Source: Pecten maximus (taxonomy: Eukaryota). Taken from it: a DNA stretch of 64,000 nucleotides. The notes below the pieces were generated by a model that saw only the letters and a program-made list of their open reading frames with translations, was not told the DNA's origin and did no database searches. Of the stretch, positions 5,280-36,662 are shown piece by piece (within the stretch, counting starts at the first letter, position 1; every line of letters starts with the position of its first letter). The DNA lies in the NCBI RefSeq assembly GCF_902652985.1, contig NC_047016.1, positions 17,608,001-17,672,000 of the forward strand, in the 5' to 3' direction. The position numbers and the translations under genes were made by a program.

Positions 5280-5825
5280 AATTTGGTTTGGTTTGGTTTA
5301 TTTTGTTTAACGTCCTATTAACAGCTAAGGTCATTTAAGGACGGCCTCCCGTGCGGTGCGTGCGACATGCATGCGTGTGACGAGTGCATATGTGTGTTTT
5401 GGGAGGCTGCGGTATGTTCGTGTTAAGTCTCCTTGTGATAGGCCGGAACTTTTGCCGATTTATAGTGCTACCTCACTGAAGCATACTGCCGAAGACACCC
5501 AGCAGCACACCCCACCCGGTCACATTATACTGACAACGGGCGAACCAGTCGTCCCACTCCTAATATGCTGAGCGCTAAGCAGGAGCAGCAACTACCATTT
5601 TTAAAGACTCTGGTATGTCTCGGCTAGGGGACAGAACCCAAAGCCTTCCTCACAGCGGCGAACGCTCAACTTAAGGCCAAAAGTGAGGCATTGTCAAGGG
5701 AGACATTAGGAAGAAGAAAGTTGTTCAGAAAGAAAAGAAAAGATAAGATCCCAAATTAAGCCGCCTATTACGATCATGCAATGGGGGCAGCAGGTACAAT
5801 TCTTACGCCCTACCTGCGGGGCAGA
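5280..5825 (-). mobile_element. Full-length tRNA-derived SINE (MetaSINE-like core, LINE-like tail) with structured 5' extension
   Basis: 10-bp TSD gagtgccgtt at 5270-5279 and 5826-5835. Has a degenerate tRNA-like head, a core gtcagtataatgtgaccgggtggggtg, and a tail atgaccttagctgttaataggacgttaaac + (AAACC)n. Further copies at 8138, 13359 and 35678. Confidence 0.85.
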
Positions 5826-5865
5826 GAGTGCCGTTTATGTCAAGTCTTAGATGCAATGATTTATA

Positions 5866-6363
5866 ACAAGAGGCCCATGGGGCCTGTATCGCTCACCTGG
5901 TTGGATTTGACCAAATGTCAAATTAATTCGATATGTCTGTCAACCTCAAACAATGCTATAGATGGTTATAGTGTGGGAATCCCAACTGTTTTTAAGAAAT
6001 AACGAAGTCCAGACACTCTAGGTTTACATCATGCAATCATAACTTTATGACTAGTAGCGATTTAAAGGAATTACAATTATTTCTTCTATGGGGTCCCGCC
6101 CCTTTGGTCCCTTTGGGGTCAAAGTCATCATTAATGCAAAATCTGTTTTGCTTTCTCCAAGGATGTTTCTGATCAAATTGGGTTCAAATCCATTCATACC
6201 TGAATGACTAGTAGCCATTTAAAGGCATAACCTCTATTTCCACTAGTGAGCCCCGCCCCTTTGGTCCCTTGGGGGAGTAACAATATGAAGTAAATGTTGA
6301 CGGACGACGGACGCCGCGCCATGACATAAGCTCACCGGACCTTCGATCCAGGTGAGATAAAAA
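5866..6363 (-). mobile_element. HINE-like element
   Basis: Terminal hairpin aggcccatggggcct, subterminal gctcacctgg/ccaggtgag inverted repeats, GGAC microsatellite and duplicated internal unit. Confidence 0.75.
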
Positions 6364-8137: not shown

Positions 8138-8669
8138 GTAGGTAGGGCGAAAGAATTGTACCTGTTGCCCCCATTGCATGATCGTAAGAGGCGACTAAAC
8201 TTGGGATCTTATCTTTTCTCTTCTTTCTTGATAACTTTCTTCTTCCTAATGTCTCCCTTGACAATGCCTCACTTTTGGCCTTTAGTAGAGCGTTCGCCGC
8301 TGTGAGGAAGGTTTTGGGTTCTGTCCCCTGGCCGAGACATACCAGAGTCTTTAAAAATGGTAGTTGCTACTCCTGCTTAGCGCTCAGCATATTTGGATCG
8401 GGACGACTAGTTGGCCCGTTGTCAGTATAATGTGACCGGGTGGGGTGTGCTGCTGGGTGTCTTCGGCAGTATGCTTCAGTGAGATAGCACTTTAAATCGG
8501 CAAAAGTTCCGGCCTATCACAAGGAGACTTAACACGAACATACCGCAGCCTCCCAAAACACACATACGCACTCACCACACGCATACATGTCGCACGCACG
8601 GGAGGCCGTCCTTAAATGACCTTAGATGTTAATAGGACGTTAAACAAAATAAACCAAACCTAACCAAAA
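8138..8669 (+). mobile_element. MetaSINE-like element, near full-length, inverted relative to 5280-5825
   Basis: Aligns end-to-end with the reverse complement of 5280-5820, including the 5' structured module and the (AAACC)n tail. Confidence 0.85.
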
Positions 8670-12159: not shown

Positions 12160-14400
12160 CAATATTGTCAAATGTCATGCGGGTCGGATAGCTGCTAGCA
12201 AAGACACTAGCAACAGCATCAATATTCACCTGGATTCCATAACGGATAGTCAATGATGCGAGTCCATTCAAATTGTCATTGTAGAGCGCAGATAGGACTT
12301 GCGTCTTCGGATAGTGCTGATTGTTCTTTCACATTCCGCTTTGGAGACTGGTACAGTGCAGAGTATCCGCATCAGCAGGTTGAGATTGAGATAAGACCTG
12401 CATGGCATCCCTGATGGTTGCTGGTGATGCTGTCTCGTCACACCATCTTCTCAACTATCTGGGATATTCACATTGCATGCTGTCTGTGGATGGTAAATTC
12501 CCACTGTACGATAAGGGACTCAATCCCAATATGTAGGGCTCCACTGGGCATTTCAGAGACAACAAATGGTGTTTAATTAGAGTCCATCAACTATAAGCTG
12601 GCTATGTCTTGAACGGCGAATTTCAAATTCACTTGTGACATGGTCCAAGAATGGTGCGTCTGTAGTATTGAGGTATGCTGGTTTATGGTGTGTTACTCCT
12701 CATAGTTTGTCACTTATACACTCTTTGACGCTTTGGCTCAATGTCCAAACGGTTTAAGATGTACATAGCCTCCTGATACCACACCTCAAAGTAGGACTCG
12801 ACTTCCTTCCTAACATCCTGGAGGCATTCCTTAACCTGAATGATCTCTTCGTGGCTTTGAATGATGTCCTTTGTACGTTACTGCTCATTAACAGTAGCAA
12901 GGTTCAGATAACGCAGACAGTTTTTCATAATGCTGAACGCAAAAAGGAACTCGAAGTTCAGAAAACAGGCTAAGAATCTTCTAGTCCTCACTTGGGTATC
13001 AGAGTCCCATATCTTGCCGGTTTCGACCATATCCTCTAAGCAACTCCCAATAACATGATAAAGTTCATGAGGTTTCCATCGCAATATGTCTCTCTATCCA
13101 CCGTGTTTTGCACAAGTCCACAAGTTTCTTTTTTTTCCAATGACGCCTTCATGTTGATAGTCTTCCCCAGGTGTCTCGGACGTTTTGGCGAAGCATCAAA
13201 GAAAAAACAAATCTTTTTAAAGTTCCCAGAATTTTTCTCATCACAGGGATATGGCGTGCCTTGATGATGCTAAGGTTCGGGCAGTGTGCTGCGCGGCCTT
13301 GTCGTTGATTGCTATGATTCATCCCTTTACACCCACCATCATATTCCTGTCCTCTCAAACATACCGCAGCCTCCCAAAACGCACATACGCACTCAACGCA
13401 TGCATGCATGTCGCACGTACGGGAGGCCGTCCTTAAATGACATACGCTGTTAATAGGACGTTAAACAAAATTAACCAAACCAAACCAAACCCTGTCGTCT
13501 CAAGTTCTCAATAGTGAGATCCTGCTCATATAGAGTGTCGCGTATTATGATTATCAAAGACTCTCTTGTCACAGACTCACAACTGAGGAAGCAGAGAAAC
13601 TGTTCCTTAATGGTATTTGCTGTGTCCACATACCGCACGATCAAGAAAAGTTGTTTCCATTTGGAAGAAACTGTAACATCGTCAGCAAGGATGGAGGAAA
13701 ACTTTGCCTTTCTTGCATCTTCTAAGTTGTGGTCACGAATCTGGTCACCATTAATGCCACTCAGCTGGTTCTGTATGGTCTTGGAGATATATTTTGCTCT
13801 ACTGATAGCTGTTGCAAATGATTCTCCAGTGTGGTGTCCCTGCATCAATGCGGAACTGCAATAGTTCATGAAAATTGCCGCGGTTGACAGCTTCGTCATT
13901 ACTTGTTCCATCGTCACGGTGGCCAGGTAGATCATTATTTTGTCTTCCACAAAACAGCACGGTGGAGGACTGGCCTCGTACATCTACAGCTGACGTCGGG
14001 TTTCTATAAGTCGACAGGAAATCCTCGCTCATCATTAACGCTGTCTGGCGTTGACTCATTCTGTCATGTGCTTTGCACTGACCTACTCCAATTAGTCAAA
14101 TTCATGACAGGCTTCTTGATGAATAATCCTATGGGTCATTTCAGTTTCGCGAAAAACGCACAATGTTTGCTAAAGATACCGTCGCATGATAGGGAATACA
14201 CAATCCATGGAAATGTTACCATCCAGCAAGGTTGAAAACTGCATACATTCCCATACATTTCAGTCTTTGGATAATCAAATCTGGTAAAGAGCGCGCTTAC
14301 CCTGGTCAACAGATTATAAATGTCATCTCTGCTCGCAGATGTATCAATGAATCTAAAGATGCCATGACCATTGATGTCTGAACAGGAAACATGTACACAT
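12160..14400 (-). pseudogene. Decayed hAT transposase (ZMYM1/P52rIPK-like, Zaphod-type)
   Basis: A TTF-zinc-finger-like WIVYSLSCDGIFSKHCAFF, then [43 protein letters not shown], and the hATC dimerisation segment CTVPVSKAECER...MNGLASLTI...IDAVASVFA. Many frameshifts. Confidence 0.85.
13359..13490 (+). mobile_element. 5'-truncated MetaSINE-like copy inserted in the hAT transposase
   Basis: SINE tail bounded by a 13-bp TSD cctgtc(c/g)tctcaa (13346-13358, 13491-13503) that duplicates the LR(G/R)Q codons. Confidence 0.85.
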
Positions 14401-29400: not shown

Positions 29401-31397
29401 AGTACTGATATGTCATTTCAAGTTTTGTTTTATGTTAAATGAGCCGTTGTACATCGTATTGAACCTGAAAATGGCAACTTGCGAAAGTGAGATCATATGT
29501 ATGCGGAACATGTGTGGTTGGTGATCAGCAAAGATAGGCATAAACATCAAAATAACTATTTATTTTCTTGATTATTTGTTCAATATGTACTTAATAAATG
29601 CTTTATATATTTAAGTATTAAATCATAATCCTGTTGTCAAAGGAAACGACAATACTATATCTCAAATCACATTTGTGACATCCATGAATCTGACCGGCAA
29701 AGGCTTGTTTCTGCGTATAGTGTGCAGTGGATTTTTTCACTTGTCAATTTTTGAAAAAAAAAGTGTGCATTATACATGAATATTTACAGTAATGATCATT
29801 TAACAGAACTGATAATCAAATATGTTGGAGGTTTAAGATTTAGAATGTGAAGCTGACATATATCAAATGTTTTGGTAGCAAATTCTTCTCAAAACCGGGA
29901 GGCCCAGGGAGTCGATATTGGGACTATAACATGCTAGAGTGAAGGGATACCGAATTTGTTCGAAGAATGACCTCGAACTGGGTCACTGGGGTCAAAAAGG
30001 CTAAAATCTTTAAATAATGATTTTTTGATAGCCAAGAGACTCTTGATACCTGATATTAGGCCAATACTATGCTGAAATAAAGGACTAGAAAATGTATTGA
30101 AATGAATGAACCTAGCCTCCTCTGGTATTTAGATAAAGTAGTAATCATTGATTATCTGTAGAAATGACATAGATCAGCATCAAAGTTGCTGAAAAACCAG
30201 TTGAGTGATACAGGCCCATTGGGCTTGTTGTTACTAGTGTGCCATGTCATTTTAAAATTATTTTGTTGAATTCTTTTGTGCCAAGGTTAACAGTTATCTG
30301 TCATGTGTTCTATTGTTAATAAATGACTCCAGATTTTACAGTCATCTTCACTAGATTATAAATAATTTTCCTGTCCATTTCATGACAAAACAAAGTTTCT
30401 TTATTCATACAGACACACAAGAGGCAGAGTGATCCGTGCTGATAATTAGGCCCTTGCTTCATTACTGAAGCATGACTCTAAGGTCTTAGATTTTAACTAT
30501 TTTCTATGTTAAATGATATGCCTAATAAAGCAGTAATATTGAGATGGCTGAATAATGAAGTATTTTTAATCTTCCATTCCCCAGACAATACAGCACAAGC
30601 TTGCTGAGATCAAGACAGAATCAGCTGTTGGTCGTGCCTTTGTTGATCAGTGTCTTGATATCCACAACCAACGTGGACTTGACTCTACGATGGCATCCAT
30701 GGCCAAATACTGGTAATTTCTTCAGCTCTAAATACAAAAACATAAGTAAAATCACCATGCTGGATAATTTGTTTGCAGGTTATAAGGTAAAAGGCATGTT
30801 GATGGTAAATTTATAGTCTGGAAAAGATTGACACAGACGTTTTATACTAAATACAGGTCTTTCTTCAGGAAAGTAAATACATGTATAATGCTGTGAAATT
30901 GTTTTTGTGATACATTGTTGATATAGGAAATGATGTATAAATGCTTGTTGTGTGAAGTTTTATGTACGGTTTTCCCAGGAAATGTTTTCTACAGTGAACC
31001 TTTTTAGTTCCAGTAAGGAATTTGATTTATCATGACATGTCCACATCTTTGATGCATAGCATATACCTAAAAATCACATTTGAATTTTAGGGATGATAAG
31101 TGAACAATTTACTGGTTTCCCAGTATAGAATATCAGTTATTTGGTTTATCAAGTATCTTTAAAAGGACACATGGAATATATTTGTTTTATTGAATAATTT
31201 TCCCTCTGTTTTTCAGGTGCTCAGATCTTCAGAACTCCATTGCAACACGTTGTGTTCAGATGCATGGAGGATGGGGATATATGTGGGAATACCCAATTGC
31301 CAGAGCTTTTGTTGATGCTCGAGTACAGCCTATCTATGGAGGCAGTAATGAAATCATGAAAGAGCTCATTGCTAGGACTGTCATCACCAAAACTTAA
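16533..31397 (+). CDS. ACADL: Long-chain specific acyl-CoA dehydrogenase, mitochondrial (9 coding exons, 436 aa)
   Basis: Exons 16533-16627, 21762-21917, 22996-23026, 23688-23794, 24940-25104, 27413-27644, 28178-28393, 30585-30712, 31217-31397. All introns are GT-AG with consistent phases; 1311 nt total. The translation has a basic transit-peptide-like N-terminus, then FNEEHDMFRQSVRRFFQEEVVP, IAMTEPGAGSDLQG, LNGSKVFITNG, GMKAQDTAELFF, ELPQERLLIA (LCAD-type catalytic Glu in helix G), QMHGGWGYMWEYPIA and IYGGSNEIMK (Gly where MCAD has its catalytic Glu). Confidence 0.95.
17071..17300 (+). mobile_element. hAT-like MITE end with long poly-G tracts
   Basis: The cagtggcggatacaggatttt terminus is followed by G runs of up to ~28 nt. 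The other end was not identified. Confidence 0.45.
18126..19251. mobile_element. Non-autonomous TIR DNA transposon carrying three ~210-bp tandem units
   Basis: 21-bp TIRs cagagacatatgtagagagat / atctctctatatatgtctctg, with TAG on both flanks (3-bp TSD). Internal units start at ~18470, 18681 and 18890. Confidence 0.8.
22112..22742. mobile_element. Palindrome-bearing non-autonomous element (Crypton-like) in ACADL intron 2
   Basis: Long inverted repeat 22133-22190/22217-22270, plus a short attctaccatg/catggtagaat inverted pair. It interrupts the second copy of a local ~78-bp tandem duplication. The family assignment is tentative. Confidence 0.55.
24295..24860 (+). mobile_element. HINE-like element, diverged, same family as 48105-48955
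   Basis: Carries gccatcttggatttt...gaagttt units and the 3' hairpin ccaagatgctctgggatctcttgtt. Confidence 0.7.
25795..27375 (+). mobile_element. Two adjacent HINE-like elements in ACADL intron 5 (25795-26900 and 26900-27375)
   Basis: The first has ~155-bp degenerate units ending ggatctcttgtt. The second starts ttagttcactggttacgagtaatcgtgagctaa and matches the family at 58710 and 63697. Confidence 0.7.
29850..30232 (+). mobile_element. HINE-like fragment (3' end)
   Basis: Ends cagttgagtgatacaggcccattgggcttgttgtt; its units resemble 46400-47015. Confidence 0.55.
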
Positions 31398-32475
31398 CTT
31401 ACCGTATATAGAGAGATATTCTGACAGCAAATGTGTACCAACAAATATGTTTTTGTTTTTTTAAAGGAAATGCGATAAATATGCTTGTTGAAGTTGGTTC
31501 TGTGGGATATGATTTAAAGATGTTGTAAATTATCATTGAAGATCCAACTTATTTGATACAAAATCTGTGGTCAGTATCATTAAATAAACATAATTCATCT
31601 TTTGCATGAATATACATTTTACTTCATGCTTGATATTCACTACCTGCTGTATGAGAATAGAACACTACTTAATGATAATCTCAGGACTAGCTACCAGTAG
31701 TCATTGATCATTTTGATTTGTGATGATCAGAATCAAGTTTGAGTTTTTTTTATCACAAGTTGCCCTGTGTATTTTCTTTATGCAGTATGCTCATGCAGGG
31801 CTTTGTGTTGATATGACTGGACTTTGTATATATACTTTCTGGAGGAATTGTCCCAGTATGAGTTGATCACTGGATTTTCAATGTGATCATTGCCATTTCA
31901 TGTAATAATGTAACAATGAATTTTTATACATCATGTCAAACCCTGAAAGTGGTTTGATGTTTGTAGTGACACAAATTGGAAGTGTATTCAGTTATATATG
32001 TCATATTTAGTATTTCAACCATATCATCTGTATCAGTATGTGATTTGTGTGTTGATAAAAAGGCTGTGAATCACCAGTTGTGTGAATATTTGAGCAATTT
32101 GACATTTCTATATGTCCATTTTATGAACAAATTAATTTTATAGGGTTCATGTACAATTGTATGTTCTACTGTTTACATACATTTAATTAAATTGAATTTT
32201 GAAAGAACATTGTACTCATTTCATTTTGTACTTATTTCATTTGGTGAGAACTATGATTGCTTATAATTTTCATTGAAATCATATAATGATATATCAGTAA
32301 CTACATGTAGTAATATATATTATTGATGATCTGCATTGAGGACTCGATAACACTTGCTATTTACAGGTTTAGTACAGGATAACTATTTCTGTAACTGTCA
32401 GATTAAACCACTAAATGAAATATTTTCCTTTTAATGTATTATATGTACAAATGTTGATGTATTATATCAACTGTG

Positions 32476-33600
32476 TCAGAATGTATAACTGGTCAGACTT
32501 CTAGAGAACTGTAACAATGTATAACTGGTCAGACTTCTGGAGAACTGTAACATTGTATAGTCATCAATCTACATCAGAATGTATAACTGGTCAGACTTCT
32601 GGAGAACTAACATTGTATAGTCACCAATCTACATCAGAATGTATAACTGGTCAGACTTCTGGAGAACTGTAACATTGTATAGTCATCAATCTACATCAGA
32701 ATGTATAACTGGTCAGACTTATAGAAAAACTGTAACATTGTATAGTCATCAATCTACATCAGAATGTATAACTGGTCAGACTTCTGGAGAACTAACATTG
32801 TATAGTCATCAATCTACATCAGAATGTATAACTGGTCAGACTTATAGAGAACTGTAACAATGTATAACTGGTCAGACTTCTGGAGAACTGTAACATTGTA
32901 TAGTCATCAATCTACATCAGAATGTATAACTGGTCAGACTTCTGGAGAACTGTAACATTGTATAGTCATCAATCTACATCAGAATGTATAACTGGTCAGA
33001 CTTCTGGAGAACTAACATTGTATAGTCATCAATCTACATCAGAATGTATAATTGGTCAGACTTCTGGAGAACTAACATTGTATAGTCACCAATCTACATC
33101 AGAATGTATAACTGGTCAGACTTCTGGAGAACTATAACATTGTATAACTGGCCAGACTTCTGGAGAACTGTAACATAAAGTTACATTGTATAGTCACCAA
33201 TTTACATCAGAATGTATAACTGGTCAGACTTATAGAGAACTGTAACATTGTATAACTGCAGACTTCTGGAGAACTGTAACATTGTATAGTCACCAATCTA
33301 CATCAGAATGTATAACTGGTCAGACTTCTGGAGAACTAACATTGTATAGTCATCAATCAACATCAGAATGTATAACTGGTCAGACTTATAGAGAACTGTA
33401 ACATTGTATAGTCAACAATCTACATCAGAATGTATAACTGGTCAGACTTCTGGAGAACTAACATTGTATAGTCATCAATCAACATCAGAATGTATAACTG
33501 GTCAGACTTCTGGAGAACTGTAACAATGTATAGTCACCAATCTACATCAGAATGTATAACTGGTCAGACTTCTGGAGAACTGTAACATTGTATGTATAAC
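32476..33600. repeat. 60/62-bp minisatellite (cagaatgtataactggtcagacttctggagaactgtaacattgtatagtcatcaatctacat)
   Basis: About 19 highly similar tandem units, with occasional ~38-bp short units. Confidence 0.95.
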
Positions 33601-35677
33601 ATAGTATGTATACAGTATCCGGTTATTTTTACAAGGTGCAATTTGGATGAATAGAGAAAATCACCCCACAAAATGTACTGTTTTTAAATTTCACGACTTT
33701 TTGTGAATTCCTATGTTCAGAACCATCAATACGTTTTTCATCGTCACTTACTTAATTGGATAGAATAACTTTTTCTTGTACAGCAACACAAACCTAATCG
33801 CGATTTACAGACTTCGTGATTCCCGCTCGAATAAATTCATTATGTCAGATTGATTTTCAGCTTGATGATCATACTTTAGTTTTGTACAGTCCGTCTACTT
33901 TGTAACATTTCCCACACAGTCATCTATAGCGAACTGCTATGTAACCTGTCACGCGTACCATTTTGGCCGTACTGACTCAATATTTTTGTGGGGTGCATTC
34001 ACCGATTGATTGCGTCAAAATATCTTCGTCGCCTATATGAGACGAATTTTTAAGTATTTTTTGGGGTTTTTTAACCCATAAATCAACATTAAATATCGCT
34101 ACGCATGTGCTTTTTTTTAGCGACGGAATGAACGAAAATAAAAACAGGTTTTGAAATTATGATCGACTTGTGCCGTGCACCCCACAAGACACTGCACCCC
34201 ACTAGTCCACCATGGCCGTTCGTCCGGGAAATGATGTTGATGTCCGAAATGGGGGTACATTGACATACATGTATGTTTGTACAAGAAATAGAGAAGTGAC
34301 TAGCACAGAAAACCACAACTGGTATTTCTTTTTTTACGATACTATACATTATTATGTATATCCAAAACTGCTCGAAAACAATAATATCAACCTGGAACAA
34401 AACATGTAGCTGACCAATTGAGTTCTGAGTACATTATGTATACATGTTGATTGCAGTTTTTAAATTGTCATATTTCTACTACAATAAGTTTGCACCCATA
34501 AGTTTGCACTAACGACGCTCCATCTAAATTTTCCTAGAGTTACCCCCCTTACTATAAATAAACCTGTTTCTGTATCATGACTATAAATAGATTCGTGCGG
34601 TATTTGGACAAGGAAGTAAGTATTTTTAACCCTGGCATGTCGTATAGGTCTAGATATATCTCGATAATCTTTCGTAGTGAATAAAAAGGTACCAAGTGAA
34701 TATTTGTTTTAACAAAAATTGGGACCTCAATGTCTAAAATCCGGACTAAGGATTAGTGTTTATTACTAAGTTATCGGTACTCGGTCGATTGGCATTCGAG
34801 GGAGTTGATTTCCGAGAGTTGCCGGAAATTTCCCCGAGAAGTTGCGATTGACAGGAGCATGTCTAGTCTTATATTAAAAAATAGCCAGAAATATGTGCCC
34901 CTGTGGTTTACATACATATAGGTATCAATTTGATCCAATTGAATACATGCGATATGCTTATATAGCGAGTAGTTATGTTGTTATTGTGAAGTTTTCATCA
35001 TTATTTTTATACAGATATCAGGTATGGTGTCAGACCGATATATACAACGTGTAAAAAGTCACTAAAACGTTAGACTAATTCGTAGACTAATGCTGGCAAT
35101 TGCTCAAATGCCTTGGGTCATCACACACAATATGTCTTAGAATACTCATATGCATATTCTCGTTTAAATAGCGATATTGATAGTTAACGTCAGGAAGTTT
35201 TTTTCAGAAATAAAATGGTCCAGGATGACGTTTTATCAATTAATTATCAAGTGAGGAACGGGTGGTGTCTACATATGGGTTTCTTATGGCAAACAACGGT
35301 TGGAAAATTCCTATATTATGCTTGTATGCAAGAGGTATACGTGCATTACTCTCCTCCTTACCAAATGAAGCATCCAAACGGTTCAGATCAGGTGCTAATT
35401 AGGTCTTACGAGTCTGATTTCATCCTGTAAGATCTATCAGTTTTCACCTGTCGTCGAAATATTAATTAATACCGTTTAGGCACATCAGCCGCTTACACAG
35501 ATCGTTCACTTATGGTTTAACCGACATGTTGCTCTTAAACTGCAGCCTGATAATTTCAGTTTCACCAGTGAAAATTGCCTTTTCTAGATAGCAGCATCCT
35601 TGGTTCCCTAACATGTCGTGTTCACATGTTCTCTATGATTCGATATTAAAGGAATTCTCCCCCGTGTCATGAACAAC

Positions 35678-36080
35678 TTTCTTCTTCCTAATGCCTCCCT
35701 TGACAATGCCTCACTTTTGACCTTTTGTTGAGCGTTCGTACTGTGAGGAAGGCTTTGGGTTCTGTCCCCTTGCCGAGACTTACCAGAGTCTTTAAAAATG
35801 GTTGTTGCTACTCCTGCTTAGCGTTCAGTATAGTGGGAGTGGGACGATTGGTTCTGGTATGGTCTGGAACTTTGGCCAATTTATAGTGCTACTTCACTGA
35901 AGCATACTACCGAAGACAACCAGCAGGATATCCCACCCGGTCACATTATACTGACAATTGGAAAACCAGTCGTTCTACTTCCAAAATGATGAGCGCTAAG
36001 CAGGAGTAGCAACTACTATCTTTAAAGACTCTGGGAACAAAACCCTAAGCATTCCTCACAGAGATGAGGCATTGTCAAGT
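35678..36080. mobile_element. Two MetaSINE-like fragments in opposite orientation (foldback)
   Basis: 35678-35855 matches 8236-8415 in the forward sense; 35866-36080 matches 5445-5697 (reverse sense of the SINE). Confidence 0.8.
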
Positions 36081-36662
36081 GAGCCATAATGTATTAGTTC
36101 CATAGTTCTTCCATGGTATCATAACATCTGGTCACATTCTAGTGGTCATTGGTCATGGTCAAAGGGTCTAAGGTTCATCCTCTTACAATTTCTGTATGGG
36201 ATAATTTTTCGGAATCAATATCATATTTTGAGAACCGGGCATCACCTTATTAAATTCATATTTCTACATTTCCGAAAACACATTAAGTTCATGATTACAG
36301 TTGTATCATAACAATTTCTCTGCAGTGTAGCGGTCGCAATCATGTCTTCCAACACTTTTTTATTTTGAAGGTATTCGTGAAAATAATGTGGCCTCGTTTT
36401 ATCGACTTTGATAATAAATTCTATGTTAAAGTTGGTCTTTTGAACATGTACAACTTTGAGTTAAGTTGTTAAGCTATATAAAAGCAACAGTAATTGTTTT
36501 GGGGTAAACATCGGATGTTTATATATATCGGGATTATATAGTAAGCATTACATGTAATTCTGATCATGCAATATTTCACTTGTAGCTTTGTCCGACCTTC
36601 GATTTACCCATCGAATGAGACTGAAGCGTATATAGCTGTGTATGGAATGTTAAAATATCATC

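What the first reader, a model, noticed from the sequence alone, without database searches (positions are those of the whole stretch)
5745..5825. SINE carries a pseudoknot-forming module upstream of its tRNA head, inside the TSD: candidate self-cleaving RNA
Seen (minus strand): GCAGGUA-GGGCGUAAGAAUUG-UACCUGC-U-GCCC-CCAUUGCAUGAUCGUAAUAGGCGGCUUAAUUUGGGAUC. This is a 7-bp hairpin whose loop GGGC can pair with the adjacent GCCC (H-type pseudoknot), followed by a CCCA/UGGG-closed domain. The 10-bp TSD shows that this ~130-nt extension moved with the element. A Pol III SINE transcript should start at the tRNA head, and here the A/B boxes look decayed. Known: many non-LTR elements define their 5' end with a ribozyme (HDV-like, hammerhead, twister). 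The helix order here does not fit HDV-like, and I cannot match it to the other classes. Inference: a 5' processing ribozyme or promoter module borrowed from a LINE that frees the SINE from Pol III.
Basis: partly seen in the sequence, partly recalled or inferred. Interest (0 to 1): 0.7.

Follow-up and report, generated by a model that had tools for sequence, protein, structure and literature searches.

The report
Knotted RNA shared by retrotransposons, viruses
The front end of this scallop jumping element is predicted to fold into a compact double-knotted RNA that also sits at the tail end of six different RNA viruses, and it likely sets the element's start by blocking an RNA-degrading enzyme rather than by cutting itself.

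Summary
The sequence is real: it is the 5' end of a 544-nt scallop MESC/Meta SINE inside a target-site duplication. The module itself is published (the LINE-derived 'LP' head, PMC4758252), where it was proposed to be a promoter. Three things here were not found in my ten literature searches. (1) Across 19 divergent families it keeps a covarying fold: a 5' H-type pseudoknot in which loop GGGC pairs with the UPSTREAM GCCC (74/76 cells), plus a 3' pseudoknot with an inserted hairpin. (2) The same module lies sense in the 3' UTR of six RNA viruses, 6-123 nt after the last stop codon (clearly tandem in one, probably in a second), in one DNA virus, and at the 5' end of two I/Nimb-like LINEs. (3) Three unrelated repeat families begin exactly 2 nt before the first helix, with different bases. 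No Rfam family or HDV-like descriptor matches; the B box is dead (0/106). Best reading (0.5): a new exoribonuclease-blocking (xrRNA-like) fold that trims read-through transcripts to unit length. Ribozyme 0.17. No activity was tested, and this window copy carries three private mutations.

The parts
5826..5835 (-). 5' target-site duplication (10 bp; 13 bp with one mismatch)
5281..5824 (-). Full-length pectinoid MESC/Meta SINE (544 nt); family +1 is C5824, one extra T at 5825
5823..5824 (-). 2-nt single-stranded 5' leader before the first helix
   Evidence: C 86/119 and T 105/119, next base upstream random
5819..5822 (-). S1 5' strand (GCCC); pairs with 5810-5807
   Evidence: 74/76 cells, swaps G-C/C-G/A-U at pairs 1 and 4
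5818..5818 (-). L1, 1-nt loop (U in the family; C here, private mutation)
   Evidence: T 86/90
5811..5817 (-). S2 5' strand (7 bp with 5796-5790)
   Evidence: 120/133; 6 of 7 pairs with double changes
5807..5810 (-). S1 3' strand (GGGC)
5797..5806 (-). L3, A-rich loop with conserved AGAAU (T-loop-like, inferred)
5790..5796 (-). S2 3' strand
5777..5789 (-). P2 (5789-5787 with 5777-5779), stacked on S2; its loop holds the P3 5' strand (5785-5782)
   Evidence: 37/38, all four Watson-Crick types at the outer pair; found independently by RNAalifold
5760..5775 (-). P4 hairpin with 7-nt loop (family UAAGAGG; two private mutations here at 5767 and 5761)
   Evidence: invariant by selection, since the searches used it as the anchor
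5750..5759 (-). UAA joiner and P3 3' strand (5753-5750) closing the second pseudoknot
   Evidence: 74/80 in 16 families (registers optimised)
5690..5749 (-). CT-rich spacer
   Evidence: PMC4758252 section 9
5612..5689 (-). tRNA-derived head; A box about 5679-5667, B box 5638-5629, both decayed
5455..5600 (-). MESC/Meta central domain (approximate limits)
   Evidence: Fig. S2 alignment
5281..5340 (-). 3' tail with AATAAA and CCAAA repeats, 76% identical over 58 nt to the 3' end of an intact I/Nimb-like LINE family of this genome
5271..5280 (-). 3' target-site duplication
8140..8668 (+). Second copy, 94% identical, 5'-truncated inside S2 (lacks the S1 5' strand)

Best explanation
The first 75 nt of this SINE are a module shared with LINEs and RNA viruses that is predicted from covariation to fold into two stacked pseudoknots, and it likely works as a roadblock to 5'-to-3' exoribonucleases (Xrn1/Xrn2). 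In the SINE, whose Pol III boxes are dead, RNA would come from host Pol II read-through; nucleases would chew in from upstream and stop 1-2 nt before helix S1, leaving a stable unit-length RNA that a Nimb-like LINE copies through the shared 3' tail. In the viruses the same fold would protect the 3' end or produce a 3' subgenomic RNA. Shown: sequence, TSD, fixed 5' boundary, covariation, viral and LINE contexts, tail homology. Inferred: the 3D fold, nuclease blocking, read-through origin, the LINE partnership.
For: Fold: S1 74/76, S2 120/133, P2 37/38, P3 74/80 cells paired; none of 20,000 partner swaps reaches these. On a sequence-only MAFFT alignment 15 of 22 pairs show double changes, covariation score 0.398 against 0.156 shuffled and at most 0.140 slid. 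Out of sample: L522 S1 4/4, S2 7/7, P2 3/3; L517 3/4, 7/7, 3/3; second copy of L438 4/4 and 7/7 with a compensated change. RNA-level function: sense 3' UTR of 7 RNA-virus contigs (6 viruses; RdRp or capsid by Pfam for 5), 6-123 nt after the last stop, tandem in L438 and by eye in L532. Flavivirus xrRNAs lie in 3' UTRs, often in tandem (PMC8374639), and the Xrn1 stop is independent of flanks (PMC12397905). Boundary: own SINE (119 copies), family A (16) and family B (21) all start 2 nt before S1, with CU, GC and AC, while the distance to the conserved AGAAU differs (positions 21, 36, 23). B box canonical in 0/106. At most 1 of 40 TSD-bounded copies could carry an untemplated G.
Against: No activity measured and no RNA 5' ends seen. 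It is not a member of any described xrRNA class, and no ring around the 5' end could be shown. From recall, Xrn1 stops several nt upstream of known xrRNA folds, not 1-2 nt. Registers were placed by hand (S1 3' strand within 1 nt; P3 optimised, which the null does not correct), families share ancestry, and on the unadjusted alignment P3 pairs in only 42-61% of cells. P3 is absent or rearranged in L218, L439, L438 and L517 (three viral rows were left out of the P3 count). The Chlamys family keeps only 3 of 4 S1 pairs and starts 1 nt later with ragged ends; family F4 (8 copies) also starts 1 nt later. A fixed start could equally be measured from the conserved 5' sequence by a promoter, or be a cleavage site. 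The tail-matching LINE family shows no module of its own in 12 loci (5' ends not mapped). s2m has the same viral distribution with no known function.
Confidence: 0.5

Rival explanations
1. A self-cleaving ribozyme of an undescribed class that cuts 2 nt upstream of S1 and releases the element from longer transcripts.
For: Base-precise, flank-independent 5' end with any base; compact double pseudoknot with invariant unpaired bases; ribozymes at LINE 5' ends are well known (PMC5786205; PMC3383444).
Against: No Rfam match; 0 hits with a loose HDV-like descriptor, and +1 is not G. In six linear RNA viruses it lies sense between the last ORF and the 3' end, where cleavage would cut off the 3' terminus; tandem copies would add nothing.
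Confidence: 0.17
2. A translation or ribosome/protein-recruiting element (3'-CITE-like in the viruses, cap-independent leader in LINEs, ribosome tether in SINEs); the 5' end is set by something else.
For: Position just after the last stop codon in viruses with tombus-like RdRp, where 3' CITEs occur (plant viruses, PMC12397905 introduction); 356-481 nt upstream of the ORF1 frame in LINEs and about 150 nt upstream of an ORF in the DNA virus; two T-loop-like loops could bind partners (inferred).
Against: Does not explain why three families begin at one structural position; it is kept in non-coding SINEs.
Confidence: 0.16
3. An internal Pol II promoter ('LINE promoter', PMC4758252), with the RNA fold serving a second role.
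For: 5'-terminal position; replaces tRNA heads in other SINEs; AATAAA before the tail; Pr77 of L1Tc is both promoter and structured RNA.
Against: A DNA promoter needs no compensated helices and has no role in RNA viruses; starts are C, G or A and not at a fixed distance from the most conserved motifs; almost no untemplated G (weak, since cap copying by this RT clade is unknown).
Confidence: 0.12

Closest known systems
LP (LINE-promoter) head of pectinoid MESC SINEs, Nimb-17_LMi, I-3_DR, RTE-9_CPB (PMC4758252)
   Same: Same element architecture and near-identical sequence: 68-bp LINE-derived head, CT-rich spacer, tRNA-derived region, MESC domain.
   Different: The sections read propose a promoter and name Pr77's ribozyme only as an analogy; they give no fold for this head, no covariation and no viral occurrence.
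Viral xrRNAs, classes 1-3 (PMC12397905, PMC8374639, PMC7527734)
   Same: Compact pseudoknotted fold in 3' UTRs of +ssRNA viruses, tandem copies, flank-independent boundary; a pseudoknot strand followed by a U-U-R-G-A-A-N-A loop segment recalls the L2B T-loop of class 3.
   Different: No three-way junction; the apical loop pairs with the 5' leader, not the 3' end; no AGY joiner; extra 3' pseudoknot; found in host retroelements; resistance untested.
Pr77/L1TcRz and other HDV-like ribozymes of LINEs (PMC3383444, PMC5786205)
   Same: About 75-nt 5'-terminal module shared by otherwise unrelated LINEs and their non-autonomous partners, defining +1.
   Different: Different helix order, no P3/L3 core, no G at +1, no descriptor or Rfam match.
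s2m (PMC8515862)
   Same: Mobile structured element near the 3' end of unrelated +ssRNA viruses, sometimes back-to-back, with counterparts in animal genomes.
   Different: s2m is a 41-43-nt hairpin; this is a 75-nt double pseudoknot at retroelement 5' ends, with no Rfam match to s2m.

Membership tests
Pectinoid MESC SINE with LP head | 5' 68-bp Nimb-17-homologous domain | tested here: met
   Near-identical to the Chlamys rows of Fig. S2
Pectinoid MESC SINE with LP head | CT-rich spacer, tRNA-derived region and MESC domain in that order | tested here: met
Pectinoid MESC SINE with LP head | TSD, poly(A) signal, short-repeat tail of Nimb type | tested here: met
   TSD called in 40 of 52 full-length copies; tail 76% identical over 58 nt to an I/Nimb-like LINE
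Canonical Pol III tRNA-SINE | Intact B box and start at the tRNA head | tested here: not met
   GTTCRA in 0/106; 2 of 60 copies start near the head without the module
HDV-like ribozyme | Nested double pseudoknot P1-P2-P3/L3-P1.1-P4, G at +1 | tested here: not met
   0 descriptor hits (2 of 30 shuffles had hits); +1 is C, G or A
Hammerhead, twister, twister-sister, pistol, hatchet ribozymes | Match to the class model | tested here: not met
   No Rfam hit over the module at E up to 10, 1 and 5 or at gathering score; that Rfam 15 holds these classes is recalled
Any self-cleaving ribozyme | Site-specific self-cleavage | not testable with these tools
   Needs an in vitro assay
Class 1/2 xrRNA | Three-way junction with double pseudoknot | tested here: not met
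   Helix order has no three-way junction; definition
Class 3 xrRNA | Apical loop pairs with the 3' end after an AGY joiner | tested here: not met
   Loop pairs with the 5' leader (74/76), downstream pairing at chance
Class 3 xrRNA | L2B T-loop (U24, U25, G26, G27, A28, A29, A31) just 3' of the pseudoknot strand | tested here: inconclusive
   AGAAU in the same place; U before it in 11 of 19 families, A after it in 15 of 19
xrRNA (functional class) | Protein-independent block of Xrn1; ring around the 5' end | not testable with these tools
   Needs Xrn1 assay and a structure
s2m | 41-43-nt conserved hairpin | tested here: not met
   Different size and fold; no Rfam hit

The most novel reading that the evidence does not exclude
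A new class of exoribonuclease-resistant RNA, exchanged between animal retrotransposons and unrelated RNA viruses, gives LINEs and SINEs a third way to make their 5' end: neither promoter nor ribozyme, but programmed decay of host read-through transcripts. It would be an xrRNA at work in host genomes, present in thousands of copies.
Probability: 0.45. Interest if true: 0.92.

Novelty: new variant of a known kind. Interest (0 to 1): 0.8.

Why it matters
How promoter-less non-LTR elements obtain exact 5' ends is explained so far by internal promoters or ribozymes. A 2021 review states that xrRNAs had been characterised only in viruses and asks whether eukaryotic genomes hold them (PMC8374639). 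This module gives a 75-nt, structure-mapped candidate that one Xrn1 gel and one cleavage gel can decide. Whatever its function, it is a structured RNA absent from Rfam that is shared by molluscan and other repeats, Nimb-like LINEs, six RNA viruses and a DNA virus, which points to traffic of a functional RNA module between retroelements and viruses.

Tried and rejected
Single-sequence folding: not significant. RNAalifold on A1 found P2 and P4 but not S2 or S1. ARAGORN found no tRNA. Rfam: nothing over the module. Viral pattern scans were mostly chance: 115 of 120 hits, all new hits, 66 of 69 (3 already known, 63 chance), and L586/L589, which lack the 5' domain; L473 and L485 were dropped. 5 of 9 prokaryote-collection hits were chance. 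RNA evidence: no RNA holder listed and contigs only, so starts, strand and level cannot be read. 40 of the 100 listed MESC hits were in three tandem arrays and were dropped before the count of 60. Two TSD calls are spurious by eye (second L014 copy, L337). No TSD was found for the L449/L621 LINE. Pfam did not classify the ORF1-like frames or the two L438 ORFs. Ruminski 2011 and the Xrn1 structure paper were not held. Literature searches that found no description of the fold or of viral copies; Repbase, Dfam and most subscription journals were not searchable, and supplement file 1 of PMC4758252 could not be searched.

Full report
What is there. The quoted sequence lies on the minus strand at 5747-5817. 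It is the 5' end of a 544-nt repeat (5824-5281) bounded by a 10-bp duplication (5835-5826 and 5280-5271). A second copy at 8140-8668 is 94% identical and truncated inside the module, and there are fragments near 13358-13489 and 35670-36034. A 17-mer from the 5' end has 2,685 exact matches in G000 and one from the centre 7,182, the latter inflated by tandem arrays; reversed controls gave 0. This copy differs from the family at three otherwise conserved module positions (5818, 5767, 5761; family base in 86, 83 and 87 of 90 copies), so it may itself be inactive.

What is already known. PMC4758252 (sections 9 and 10 read whole or nearly, passages, supplement 4 part 1) describes scallop MESC SINEs with a 68-bp head homologous to the 5' ends of Nimb-17_LMi, I-3_DR and RTE-9_CPB, then a CT-rich spacer, a tRNA-derived region and the MESC domain. 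Its Chlamys rows are near-identical to this module. The authors call it LP, propose a Pol II promoter, say experiments are needed, and cite the L1Tc Pr77 promoter-ribozyme as an analogy. PMC11481361 (passages) links Meta SINE tails to Nimb LINEs and has no 'ribozyme'; PMC4824008 (passages) has no 'Nimb' or 'ribozyme'; PMC5786205 (passages) discusses ribozymes at LINE 5' ends.

Does the module travel with the SINE? Of the first 100 listed central-motif hits, 40 in tandem arrays were dropped. Of the 60 dispersed copies, 35 start in the first 15 nt (31 in the first 4), 8 inside the module, 5 at 81-140, 5 at 141-200 and 7 further in. The tRNA head begins near position 135; three copies start at 128-141, and one of these carries the module inverted. 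The canonical B box is absent from 106 of 106 copies. In 52 full-length copies, C and T precede the GCCC in 43 and 49, the next base is random, a TSD was called in 40, and at most one could hold an untemplated G. The tail is 76% identical over 58 nt to the 3' end of an intact LINE family here (endonuclease, RT, RNase H). That family showed no module of its own in 12 loci: all six model hits were SINE insertions.

Relatives. In the prokaryote collection 4 of 9 hits are real and look like host DNA in bacterial bins (inferred); two of them are LINEs with endonuclease and RT domains 356-481 nt downstream, one intact. L101 has an ORF1-like zinc-knuckle frame downstream (not classified by Pfam). Seven viral scans gave 8 real contigs. 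Seven are RNA-virus-like (L438, L218 and its near-twin L440, L439, L441, L522, L532): RdRp or capsid by Pfam for five viruses, and for L438 only a coat-protein similarity to L532 (E 7e-10). The best pairwise protein identities are 26-28%. In all seven the module is sense and 6-123 nt after the last stop codon. L438 has a second copy cut by the contig end (model E 2e-4); L532 has a more diverged copy upstream, seen by eye and not scored by the model. The eighth, L517, is an intergenic site in a 212-kb DNA virus beside a DNA ligase gene.

The fold. One representative was taken from each of 19 families (15 repeats and LINEs, 4 viruses). With strands placed by offsets, S1 (5' leader with the loop's GGGC-type strand) pairs in 74 of 76 cells, S2 in 120 of 133, P2 in 37 of 38 and P3 in 74 of 80 (16 families; three viral rows left out); null means from 20,000 partner swaps were 61.4, 83.3, 19.4 and 44.0, and none reached the observed value. 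S1 swaps G-C, C-G and A-U at two pairs; the outer P2 pair shows U-A, C-G, G-C and A-U, and both P2 strands lengthen together in four families. On the untouched MAFFT alignment the structure pairs 81% of cells with 15 of 22 pairs doubly changed, above shuffled and slid controls, although P3 is out of register there, and RNAalifold finds P2 and P4 unaided but not S1 or S2. Three instances found later fit the fixed rule. These counts are sequences, not independent events; R-scape was not available. P4 and its loop are invariant partly because they were the search anchor; looser scans found loop variants at single positions. The 5' half has the geometry of a classical H-type pseudoknot (4-bp S1, 1-nt L1, 7-bp S2, A-rich L3; geometry recalled from established knowledge). 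The 3' half is a pseudoknot with an inserted hairpin whose 7-nt loop has tRNA T-loop spacing (inferred).

The 5' boundary. Conservation ends 2 nt before S1 in the own SINE (C 86, T 105 of 119), family A (G 14, C 14 of 16) and family B (A 18, C 18 of 21), although AGAAU sits at positions 21, 36 and 23. F4 (8 copies) and the Chlamys family start about 1 nt later.

Mechanism. An RNA-only life cycle makes a DNA promoter an insufficient explanation. Two readings explain a boundary fixed to the fold: self-cleavage or an exonuclease stop. No ribozyme model fits, and a cut 5' of the module would remove the 3' end of a linear viral genome. A position after the stop codon, tandem copies and a flank-independent boundary are features of xrRNAs (PMC8374639 passages; PMC12397905 introduction, sections 20 and 27 and passages; PMC7527734 passages). 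I therefore put 0.5 on an xrRNA-like block, 0.17 on a new ribozyme, 0.16 on a translation or binding element and 0.12 on a promoter. The module fails membership of xrRNA classes 1-3, which lowers 'it is one of them' but not 'it works like one'. s2m (PMC8515862, abstract and opening text) shows that such a distribution can exist with the function unknown.

Novelty. The SINE and its LINE-derived head are known. The double-pseudoknot fold, its presence in viruses and the structure-fixed boundary were not found in ten searches of the held library or in this scan's earlier notes. Repbase, Dfam, subscription journals and one supplement file were out of reach. Verdict: real, structurally new variant, function untested; interest 0.8.

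Noticed in passing
L517:1981-2053 (212-kb DNA virus contig): Intact module (S2 7/7, P2 3/3, weak P3) in an AT-rich intergenic stretch upstream of a long ORF.
   Followed up: partly
L591-L620 and L034, L047 (G000): Older, diverged repeat families in this genome carry the same module, some apparently with a second degenerate copy about 60-100 nt downstream (49 matches with up to 1 mismatch).
   Followed up: partly
L621:900-7100 (G001:C4) and L445: An intact I/Nimb-like animal LINE sits in a bacterial symbiont assembly, and another LINE in a MAG; likely host DNA in these bins.
   Followed up: partly
L218:1797-1885 and L440: Viral variant in which the P3 pseudoknot is replaced by a tetraloop on P2 and a separate hairpin after P4.
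   Followed up: no
G000:C1:6144440-6145904, 14169742-14170332, 21525051-21525951: Minisatellite arrays (26-38-nt period) built from a piece of the MESC domain.
   Followed up: no
window 35670-36087: Two rearranged SINE fragments in opposite orientation forming an 85-nt inverted repeat.
   Followed up: no
window 5864-6340: The SINE lies just beside the end of another abundant repeat whose terminus recurs at 30195-30233 and 46979-47017 in inverted orientation.
   Followed up: no
window 49099-50951 and 53741-54306; 40502-41473; 32394-33641: Long tandem arrays (25-, 28- and about 61-nt periods); the first is flanked by 300-nt repeats 99% identical.
   Followed up: no
L438:252-3905 minus: 1,217-aa ORF of an RNA-virus-like contig with a polymerase-like SDD motif but no Pfam match.
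   Followed up: no
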